Positions 6,701 through 18,057 of a DNA stretch of 64,000 nt are shown here, piece by piece. The position numbers were made by a program, and so were the translations under genes. Origin of the DNA: Ruditapes philippinarum. Lineage: Eukaryota. The stretch covers positions 62,001-126,000 of the forward strand of contig NW_026855289.1 in NCBI RefSeq assembly GCF_026571515.1, in the 5' to 3' direction. The first letter of the stretch is position 1, and each line of letters opens with the position of its first letter. The notes below the pieces were generated by a model. The model ran no database searches and was not told the origin of the DNA. It was given only the letters and a program-made list of their open reading frames with translations.

Positions 6701-9700
6701 TCAAATTATTAATTAATGTTCTATTTTATTATAACTTTAAATTAAATTATATTTTGTGTAGTTTACCTGTGGCCAGGATAAGCCATGATAGAAGTAGTAT
6801 TTCATCTGATAATTTTCAGGTAGACACAGTAAATTACAATGCTGCATATTCATCAGATCTTCGGGCTAAAAAAAGTATTAACAGTTTATTATTTTACAAG
6901 TAATATTTACATTCTTCAACAGTTACAGTTCATATGACAATCTTTCACCTCTAAAACAGTTAAACAATTACAAAAAACAGTAGGATAATTAAGTCTTACA
7001 TACAATTACAACGGTCCTACTAAACACTGCTAAAGACTGCTAAGGACCGCTAAGGACTGCTAAGGAGCCACAAAGGAGCCACAAAGGACTACTAAAGCGG
7101 CACAAAGGACCTTAAAATAGCTCCTAGGCCATTCTTATATTACATGGTATTATTTTTAGTGAAAAAAAAATTATAATTTTAAGAAAAAATATGATTTTGG
7201 TGAAAATTTTATGAGTTGTCGGACCGCTAAGGACTGCTCAGATACACAAAAGACTGCTAGGGAGGCACAAAGGACCTTAAAATACCTCCTAGGGCATTCT
7301 TATAATACAAGGTAGTATGTTTAGTGACAAAAAATGTATAATTTTAAGGAAAAATATCATTTTAGTGATAAAATTTATGTTTTTGAAGAGTTGTCGGACC
7401 GCTAAGGACTGCTCAGGTGCACTAACAACTGCTAGGGAGGCACAAAGGACCTTCAAATCCCTCCTAGAACATTCTTATAATATATGGTAGTAAGTTAATA
7501 GACAAAAATGTATTATTGTAAGAAAAAAATATAATTTTGGTGATAGAATTTATGCTTTCGATGAGTTGCCGGACCGCTAAGGACTGCTCAGGTGCGAAAA
7601 GGACTGCTAGGGACCTTAAAATATTTCCTAAGGAGGCACAAAGGACCTTAAAATACCTGTAAGGGCATTCTTATAATACATGGTAGTATGTTTAGTGATA
7701 AAAAATGTATAATTTTAAGGAAAAATATCATTATAGTGATAAAATTCATGTTTTTGAAGAGTTGTCGGACAGCTAAGGACTGCTCAGGTGCACTAACAAC
7801 TGCTAGGGAGGCACAAAGGACCTTCAAATCCCTCCTAGAACATTATTATAATATATGATAGTAAGTTAATAGACAAAAAGAAAAAAATATAATTTTGGTG
7901 ATAGAATTTATGTTTTTGATGAGTTGCAGGACTGCTAGGGAAGTACAAAGAATCTTAAAATACCTCCTAGGGGCACAAAGGACTGCTAGGGAGGCACAAA
8001 GGACATTTAAATACCTCCTAGGGCATTCTTATAATATATGGTAGTATGTTTAGTGAGAAAAAATGTATAATTTTAAAAAAAATATAATTTTGGTGATAGA
8101 ATTTATGCTTTCAATGAGTTGCCGGACCGCTAAGGACTGCTCAGGTGCACTAACAACTGCTAGGGAGGCACAAAGGACCTTAAATTACTTCCTAGGGCAT
8201 TTTTATATTATATTGTAGTAAGTTAATAGATAAAAAATGTATTTTTTAAAGAAAAAATATAATTTTAGTGATAGAATTTATGTTTTCGATGAATTGGAGG
8301 ACCGCTAAGGACTGCTAGGGAGGTACAAAGAATCTCAAAATACCTCCTAGGGGCACAAAGGACTGCTCAAATGGTGTCTCAAATGGTGAAAAATGCATTA
8401 TTTAGGCCCTTAACACTTGTTTTTGTTTGAGAAATGTTGTTAAAAAAAGTGACCACTTTTTCGGCGCAGCCCCCAACCAAAAGATACATCAGGGGGTTGC
8501 CAGAAGGGGGATGTGCCCCCTTCTGTTTGGGGGGGTTTGAAGGGGGGCGGAGTCCCCCTCATCGCCAAGAAAATTTTGGACTTGTGAGAGGCTATAAATG
8601 ACCCCAGATTGATCATAAGGTAACGTGTAACCAACGCTGAAAAGCATTTGACTCTATCTCAATCCATTGAGAAGTTGCAGCACTTTGAAATCAATTATGA
8701 TGGAAAAAATCAACGCAAAATAGTGATTTTTGGCAATTTTGAGATGCCCCCTCGTTGCCATGGTAACAGAAAATTAAAGCCTGAGCATGTTGTTGCAAGG
8801 GCAATGGTCCAGTCAACATTTGTGCCAAGTTTGATTAGTGTTGAAGCAGTTTTTATAGTATTATAGCAATTTGAACTTGTAACGGGAGACTTTTCAATGA
8901 AAACAGCCATTTTTCACAAAATGCTCATGAAGTAATGGGTTAATGAAAAAAATAAAAAAATCTACAAAACAACAATTTTTCTTCAAATTTATATGACAGG
9001 CCATGTTTAAACATGGAAAAACGCAATTTAGAGTAATTTCAAGTATTTTCATCATTTTCTGTTAACCCATTACTTCATATACACGCCTTTTAACGCCTTT
9101 TTCACCCCCCCCTTTTTGTTGTCTCAAATGGTGAAAAATGCATTATTTAGGCCCTTAACACTTGTTTTTGTTTGAGAAATGTTGTTAAAAAAAAGTGACC
9201 ACTTTTTCGGCGCGGCCCCCCAACCAAAAGATACATCAGGGGGTTGCCAGAAGGGGGATGTGCCCCCTTCTGTTTGGGGGGTTTGAAGGGGGGCGGAGTC
9301 CCCCTCATCGCCAAGAAAATTTTGGACTTGTGAGAGGCTATAAATGACCCCAGATTGATCATAAGGTAACGTGTAACCAACGCTGAAAAGCATTTGACAC
9401 TATCTCAATCCATTGAGAAGTTGCAGCACTTTGAAATCAATTATGATGGAAAAAATCAACGCAAAATAGTGATTTTGGGCAATTTTGAGATGCCCCCTCG
9501 TTGCCATGGTAACAGAAAATTAAAGCCTGAGCATGTTGTTGCAAGGGCAATGGTCCAGTCAACATTTGTGCCAAGTTTGATTAGTGTTCAAGCAGTTTTT
9601 ATAGTATTATAGCAATTTGAACTTGTAACGGGAGACTTTTCAATGAAAACAGCCATTTTTCACAAAATGCTCATGAAGTAATGGGTTAAATATCTCCTAG

Positions 9701-18057: not shown

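What the first reader, a model, noticed from the sequence alone, without database searches (positions are those of the whole stretch)
6866..18036. 10.9-kb foldback element at the centre of a ~284-bp intron of a core housekeeping gene: a potentially self-hiding insertion
Seen: NAA10 intron 1 is 11,171 bp; removing the element and one TSD leaves ~284 bp. The element ends lie 146 nt from the acceptor and 147 nt from the donor, and its arms are complementary over 0.9-1.4 kb. Inference: in the pre-mRNA the arms could pair, loop out ~8-9 kb and restore donor-acceptor proximity behind a 21-nt first coding exon. The long dsRNA would also be an ADAR/Dicer substrate. Long satellite-built TIRs could thus make intronic insertions tolerable.
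Basis: partly seen in the sequence, partly recalled or inferred. Interest (0 to 1): 0.7.

Follow-up and report, generated by a model that had tools for sequence, protein, structure and literature searches.

The report
Recent foldback transposon in NAA10 intron
One copy of a common mirror-ended jumping element, likely of the Mutator/Foldback kind, sits in the first intron of the housekeeping gene NAA10 in one animal while others carry the empty site; its ends are predicted to pair in the RNA, but whether splicing needs that is untested, so it is most likely an ordinary recent insertion.

Summary
The empty allele is real: contigs of 3 of 3 samples laid on the left flank show it. Filled junctions appeared in only 1 of 5 DNA samples, which also carries an empty allele and may be the assembly's source. 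The element belongs to a non-autonomous family: 167 exact ends, 52 pairs, median 9.6 kb, exact 9-bp TSD in 20 of 32, asymmetric CGGT...ACCC tips like nematode Tm1. No transposase-bearing copy was found. Two arms are the family's normal build, not a feature of this site. Outer-arm pairing is predicted to cut the donor-acceptor path to about 295 nt, but the first arm meets an 83%-complementary inner array 3 kb earlier. Exon 1 is at least 101 nt, not 21. No RNA from the filled allele could be assigned, so 'self-hiding' is untested. The idea is in print (Shepard 2009), and SOS splicing did not act on intronic Tc1. The scan's index held no look-alike of this arm.

The parts
6767..6865 (-). NAA10 exon 2 (99 nt)
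   Evidence: splice joint in RNA contig
6866..18036 (-). NAA10 intron 1, 11,171 bp filled, 284 bp empty
   Evidence: empty allele; RNA joint
7003..7011 (+). 9-bp target site duplication, left copy (CAATTACAA)
7012..17889 (.). Non-autonomous foldback element, tips CGGTCC...GGACCC
7012..8370 (+). Left arm, outer part: about four 10-bp repeats, then ~175-bp repeats (with 371-bp higher-order units in the right arm); 98% complementary to the right arm over 7073-7879
8370..9687 (.). Nested insertion 1, with an internal 574-nt direct duplication; in 0 of 31 other copies; a dispersed repeat elsewhere (boundaries approximate)
9688..11440 (+). Left arm, inner array of ~175-bp repeats, 82-83% complementary to the right arm
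11440..12510 (.). Nested insertion 2: 170-bp repeats plus GGAC microsatellite; resembles Helentron-associated elements (label recalled); matched in about 2 of 31 copies (boundaries approximate)
12511..12981 (.). Family core, part 1 (shared with 12-13 of 31 copies)
12972..14440 (.). Nested insertion 3: young high-copy ~1.47-kb repeat (ends 99% identical to other loci), holds a tRNA-Thr(AGT)-like sequence at 13699-13770
14437..16514 (.). Family core, part 2 (shared with 20-23 of 31 copies); two stop-to-stop frames of 80-89 aa, none longer
16514..17889 (-). Right arm, ~1.37 kb; transcribed first in the NAA10 pre-mRNA
17890..17898 (+). 9-bp target site duplication, right copy
18037..18137 (-). NAA10 exon 1, at least 101 nt (21 coding)
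   Evidence: RNA contig of run X18

Best explanation
This is a polymorphic, likely recent insertion of one copy of a multi-copy non-autonomous foldback DNA transposon, likely moved in trans by a Mutator-type transposase, into NAA10 intron 1; the enlarged intron is likely removed by the ordinary spliceosome at its intact splice sites, and the predicted arm pairing is likely a by-product of the element's ends rather than a requirement. Shown: element, TSD, family, empty allele, intact splice sites and reading frame. Inferred: recency (filled haplotype identical to one empty haplotype over 367 bp), Mutator-type mobilisation (9-bp TSD, Tm1-like tips), normal splicing of the filled allele. Any harm would be masked in a heterozygote.
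For: Empty allele in S1, S3 and S4, with loose-end letters equal to the right flank. Filled junction contigs only in S4: left 6890-7058, right 17863-18164, 0 differences. X1's empty-allele contig has 0 differences over 6646-7012. Family: 167 exact 22-mer ends against 0 for the control pattern; 52 pairs, 50 of them C/G asymmetric, median 9,560 bp; exact 9-bp TSD in 20 of 32 elements; shared core. NAA10 has 7 exons, GT-AG introns and an open 190-codon frame. MULE TSDs are 8-11 bp and MULEs tend to insert in or near genes (PMC6446971, passages). Mean intron in another clam is 2,805 bp (PMC11899663, passage), so 11 kb is long but only about 4 times that mean.
Against: No transposase-bearing copy found, so the Mutator label rests on ends and TSD. 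No RNA from the filled allele was seen, so normal splicing is assumed. The intron is 39 times its empty length and 4 times the largest other intron in NAA10 (2,632 bp) or neighbouring ARL8 (~2.1 kb). Three nested insertions are private or nearly so, and no donor copy with the same junctions turned up among 40 scored of 2,680 and 40 of 1,756 candidates; this could mean the insertion is older than the flank identity suggests. The S4 left-junction contig has depth 2.1, and the right one reaches only 27 letters into the element.
Confidence: 0.72

Rival explanations
1. Self-hiding insertion: the outer arms pair in the pre-mRNA, loop out about 9 kb and are needed for efficient splicing, which lets such large elements persist in introns.
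For: Predicted duplex -2,067 kcal/mol, 1,270 pairs, donor-acceptor path cut to about 295 nt. Outer 807 nt are 98% complementary. The same idea was proposed for large vertebrate introns (PMC2773006, abstract).
Against: The first-made arm can pair with the inner array (-1,521 kcal/mol) about 3 kb of transcription before the outer arm exists, leaving a 3,077-nt path (two-strand energies only, no kinetics). Exon 1 is at least 101 nt. The allele was seen in 1 of 5 samples and not as a homozygote. [quoted passage not shown]
Confidence: 0.12
2. The filled allele is a mildly harmful or null allele (premature polyadenylation, cryptic splicing, dsRNA- or chromatin-based silencing) kept only because the other allele works.
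For: Seen only beside an empty allele. The sense strand of the element has 11 AATAAA and 11 GTRAG motifs. It begins about 250 nt below the 5' end of the RNA contig. Long dsRNA is predicted.
Against: The motif counts have no null here (15 AATAAA on the antisense strand); only one strong acceptor-like motif. Rarity is also expected of any young neutral insertion. Five samples are too few.
Confidence: 0.13
3. Assembly artefact: two unrelated arm arrays joined at this site.
Against: Matching 9-bp TSD, correct C/G tip asymmetry, family-type core, junction contigs in S4 on both sides, and an empty allele that breaks exactly at the TSD.
Confidence: 0.03

Closest known systems
Tm1 Mutator/Foldback family of root-knot nematodes (PMC3169594; abstract, passages and section 5 read)
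   Same: Composite tandem-repeat TIRs of unequal length, 9-bp TSD, asymmetric tips beginning CGGT and ending ACCC, non-coding copies, nested elements, empty sites.
   Different: Tm1 elements are 1-2.6 kb with 14-bp repeats and have a Phantom-like transposase copy; here about 10 kb with 10-bp and ~175-bp repeats and no transposase copy found. The tip match is 4 bases at each end; no further sequence comparison was made.
Drosophila Foldback (FB, FB-NOF), Tetris and Galileo (search listing and abstract starts; FB details recalled)
   Same: Long, modular, internally repetitive TIRs built of short and satellite-length units.
   Different: Galileo is P superfamily (abstract start); no sequence comparison was run.
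Stem-assisted splicing of large introns (Shepard, McCreary, Fedorov 2009, PMC2773006; abstract read)
   Same: Inverted repeats in pre-mRNA proposed to shorten the donor-acceptor distance.
   Different: Proposed for vertebrate introns of the >50 kb class with many SINE/LINE stems; a computational hypothesis. Here one element, 11 kb, with filled and empty alleles.
SOS splicing (PMC12779559; abstract and passages read)
   Same: TIR base-pairing in RNA hides a DNA transposon from the host gene.
   Different: [quoted passage not shown] This element is intronic.

Membership tests
Mutator-like (MULE) superfamily | TSD of 8-11 bp | tested here: met
   exact 9 bp in 20 of 32 elements (window included), exact 8 bp in 2, 9 bp with one mismatch in 3, none in 7
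Mutator-like (MULE) superfamily | Long TIRs | tested here: met
   arm sequence 0.7-4.3 kb per side in copies over 4 kb
Mutator-like (MULE) superfamily | MULE DDE transposase in an element with these ends | tested here: inconclusive
   No transposase-like frame seen by eye among frames of 170 aa or more in 32 copies (not scanned against Pfam). 0 of 34 PF10551 contigs and 0 of 106 PF20700 contigs carry an exact end. 0 of 40 fetched transposase loci match the arm. The family searches score only top candidates (114 of 356 for PF20700).
Foldback-type structure | Modular tandem-repeat TIRs that vary in length between ends and copies | tested here: met
Foldback-type structure | Dispersed copies with different flanks and an empty site | tested here: met
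Tm1 / Phantom clade | Asymmetric tips CGGT... and ...ACCC | tested here: met
   50 of 52 pairs have one C and one G tip; Tm1 motifs from PMC3169594 section 5; 4 bases per end only
Tm1 / Phantom clade | FLYWCH plus MULE transposase | tested here: inconclusive
   No autonomous copy found; FLYWCH itself not searched
SOS-splicing substrate | Base-pairing inverted ends in the transcript | tested here: inconclusive
   Predicted only
SOS-splicing substrate | Location in an exon or 3' UTR | tested here: not met
   Element is intronic; intronic Tc1 not processed
SOS-splicing substrate | AKAP17A, CAAP1 and RTCB in the host | not tested
   Not searched
Pairing-dependent splicing of a long intron | Splicing falls when pairing is broken | not testable with these tools
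   Needs a minigene or allele-resolved RNA from a carrier

The most novel reading that the evidence does not exclude
Kilobase satellite-built TIRs act as a built-in RNA clamp: they restore the original donor-acceptor distance (about 295 nt against 284) so that a 10-kb element is invisible to splicing, and selection enriches two-armed copies of this family in introns. The natural filled/empty heterozygote in a housekeeping gene would be a direct test.
Probability: 0.12. Interest if true: 0.62.

Novelty: new member of a known kind. Interest (0 to 1): 0.25.

Why it matters
As found, it is an apparently undescribed foldback family with recent activity in a bivalve (my paper searches, listed no description of it; Repbase and Dfam could not be searched), and one segregating 10.9-kb insertion in a core gene. 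That is ordinary transposon biology. Its use is practical: a filled and an empty allele in one animal, told apart by linked SNPs, allow an allele-specific test of the old idea that inverted repeats help splice long introns. If the arms proved necessary, foldback TIRs would have a second role besides transposase binding.

Tried and rejected
Search for an autonomous partner: nothing in 32 copies, in the contig overlap with PF10551 and PF20700 hits, or in 40 fetched transposase loci; 12 tip-like hits at 3 mismatches did not continue into arm sequence. Second NAA10 haplotig in the assembly: 1 match, itself. Donor copy with the same nested junction: not among the scored candidates. Editing: the 6 differences listed on the arm tip in RNA run X23 also occur in DNA runs and the reads come from many copies, so nothing can be assigned. 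X23 showed no spliced reads among the listed rows; the tool drops human-like reads, so the low exon depth is no finding. Rfam: 0 hits in 6800-18500. Excision-footprint reading of the S4 empty allele lacking 6 bp: rejected because that haplotype has further differences from the filled one (6920, 6941, 6946, 6972). Genome-wide intron enrichment was not attempted: no annotation and no null available. A Pfam scan of the six frames of the element's interior was not obtained, so coding remnants shorter than 80 aa are not excluded. SOS splicing as mechanism: rejected on the paper's own intron result.

Full report
1. Observation. The window holds a minus-strand NAA10 gene. Exon 2 (6865-6767) is 33 of 33 identical to human NAA10 residues 9-41, and exon 5 hits Pfam Acetyltransf_1. 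Seven exons give an open frame of 190 codons with GT-AG introns of 11,171, 516, 508, 892, 1,002 and 2,632 bp. Intron 1 (6866-18036) holds an element at 7012-17889 between two copies of CAATTACAA; without it and one copy the intron is 284 bp, and the ends are 146 and 147 nt from acceptor and donor. The arms are 98% complementary over 807 nt and 91% over 1,362 nt. An RNA contig (run X18, allele unknown) joins 18037 to 6865 and covers 18137-18037, so exon 1 is at least 101 nt.

2. Anatomy. Each arm begins with about four 10-bp repeats and goes on as ~175-bp repeats. The left arm is interrupted at about 8370-9687 and resumes at 9688-11440, so it totals about 3.1 kb against 1.4 kb on the right. Two core segments are shared with other copies (12511-12981 in 12-13 of 31; 14437-16514 in 20-23 of 31). 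Three segments are private or nearly so. The third is a young high-copy 1.47-kb repeat with a tRNA-Thr-like sequence. The longest stop-to-stop frame inside the element is 91 aa.

3. Family. The genome (1.41 Gb; earlier scan notes call it a clam, and two runs that hold the stretch are labelled mollusc metagenome; I did not test the species) has 167 exact matches to the 22-nt tip against 0 for the control: 83 with C and 84 with G as first base. They form 52 facing pairs within 30 kb, 50 with one C and one G tip, 56 to 17,711 bp long, median 9,560. I fetched 31 of the other paired copies, plus one head-to-head locus (C10625) that I left out of the TSD count. Of 32 elements including this one, 20 have an exact 9-bp TSD, 2 an exact 8-bp TSD, 3 a 9-bp TSD with one mismatch and 7 none. 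A two-armed element of about 10 kb is thus the family's usual form. The 9-bp TSD fits MULEs (8-11 bp; PMC6446971, passages), and the CGGT...ACCC asymmetry matches the tips of Tm1, a Mutator/Foldback family (PMC3169594, section 5). No autonomous copy was found: none by eye among long frames, no exact tip on 34 MULE or 106 Mutator-domain contigs, no arm match in 40 fetched loci. Superfamily membership is therefore likely, not shown.

4. Polymorphism. Of 24 listed runs I laid 8. On the left flank, contigs of X1 (S1) and X3 (S3) run from the flank through one TSD straight into the right flank: the empty allele. X4 (S4) has both a filled junction contig (6890-7058, 0 differences, 47 letters into the element, depth 2.1) and an empty one on a different haplotype that lacks 6 bp at the site. 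On the right flank X8 (also S4) covers 17863-18164 with 0 differences, 27 letters into the element, short of the tool's 31-letter rule. For X11 (S5) and X12 (S6) the listed unique contig starts at 17894 and does not enter the element; their loose letters were not shown. So the filled allele was seen in 1 of 5 DNA samples. S4 may be the assembly's source and is not independent support. Contigs drop rare variants and many rows were not shown, so this is no frequency. The filled haplotype equals X1's empty one over 367 bp, while other haplotypes differ at several sites, which points to a recent insertion. Against that, the nested insertions have no donor copy among the scored candidates.

5. Mechanism. 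Shown: a TSD-bounded family member in an intron with intact splice sites. Inferred: cut-and-paste mobilisation in trans; MULEs favour sites in or near genes (PMC6446971, abstract), and this one lies about 250 nt below the observed 5' end. For the pre-mRNA, two-strand folding predicts -2,067 kcal/mol for the outer pairing, leaving a path of about 295 nt, and -1,521 kcal/mol for pairing of the first-made arm with the inner array, leaving 3,077 nt. The inner array starts 6.6 kb after the donor, the outer arm at 9.7 kb, and the element ends only 146 nt before the acceptor. The neat geometry may thus not be the first structure formed; no kinetics were modelled. Nothing here tests need: the RNA reads of X23 on the intron carry another haplotype's variants, and differences on the arm tip are also in DNA. 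The intron is long for its neighbourhood (ARL8 introns about 0.4-2.1 kb) and about 4 times the 2,805-bp mean of Arctica islandica (PMC11899663, passage). That multi-kilobase introns are generally spliced without a clamp is my background knowledge. I put 0.72 on an ordinary insertion with dispensable pairing, 0.13 on a harmful allele masked in a heterozygote, 0.12 on self-hiding and 0.03 on artefact.

6. Prior art. Stem-assisted approximation of splice sites was proposed in 2009 for large vertebrate introns (PMC2773006, abstract). [quoted passage not shown] Satellite-built foldback arms are known from Tetris, Galileo and Tm1 (listing). MULEs occur across mollusc genomes (PMC10294476, passages); in PMC8268682 (passages) two oyster satellites are classed with MuDR. 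Eight paper searches listed no description of this family and no test of foldback arms aiding intron splicing; the library lacks most subscription papers and Repbase. Earlier scan notes describe other foldback families in this genome; a look-up by this arm's sequence found none.

7. Verdict. Real, and confirmed by an empty allele. A new member of a known kind of element, in an ordinary polymorphic insertion. The self-hiding idea is physically plausible, not new as an idea, and untested here. Interest 0.25.

Noticed in passing
window 18163-18400: A high-copy repeat sits just upstream of NAA10 exon 1; in run X8 a contig has 341 other letters in place of these 239, so the promoter region varies too.
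   Followed up: no
window 7000-7011: The empty allele comes in two forms: with the full 9-bp target (X1, X3) and lacking 6 bp (X4; probably X11, X12). A third CAATTACAA lies at 6965.
   Followed up: partly
window 12972-14440: Young 1.47-kb repeat with a tRNA-Thr(AGT) call at 13699-13770 and a second tRNA-like stretch near 14190-14245; it sits inside what looks like an older, deleted copy of the same repeat that forms part of the foldback core.
   Followed up: partly
G000:C10625:30649-31021 (L020): Two tips joined head to head with no flank between them, forming a palindromic junction.
   Followed up: no
G000:C13373:110315-110370, C6850:67226-67431, C9479:33479-34012: Miniature copies of 56, 206 and 534 bp made only of tips or arms.
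   Followed up: partly
G000:C2252:11631-24457 and C11353:84680-99524: Pairs with like tips (C/C, G/G); the C2252 pair has no TSD. Possibly products of recombination or inversion between copies.
   Followed up: no
L063-L064 (G000:C9390): The longest copy (17.7 kb) owes its size to a nested insertion with LINE-like frames (label by eye).
   Followed up: no
window 16382-16514: A ~99-bp unit at the core/arm boundary is expanded into long minisatellite arrays in other copies such as C5946, C6226 and C7966.
   Followed up: no
window 22358-22579 (+), 24582-25409 (-), 29354-35087 (+), 52857-53967 (+): Neighbours: a frame resembling the NDUFA5 C-terminus (recalled; no Pfam hit), which would make a divergent gene; single-exon TMEM187; ARL8; a gelsolin-repeat gene.
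   Followed up: partly
window 48548-49419: A small element with 272-nt inverted arms at 97% built of 22- and 30-bp repeats.
   Followed up: no
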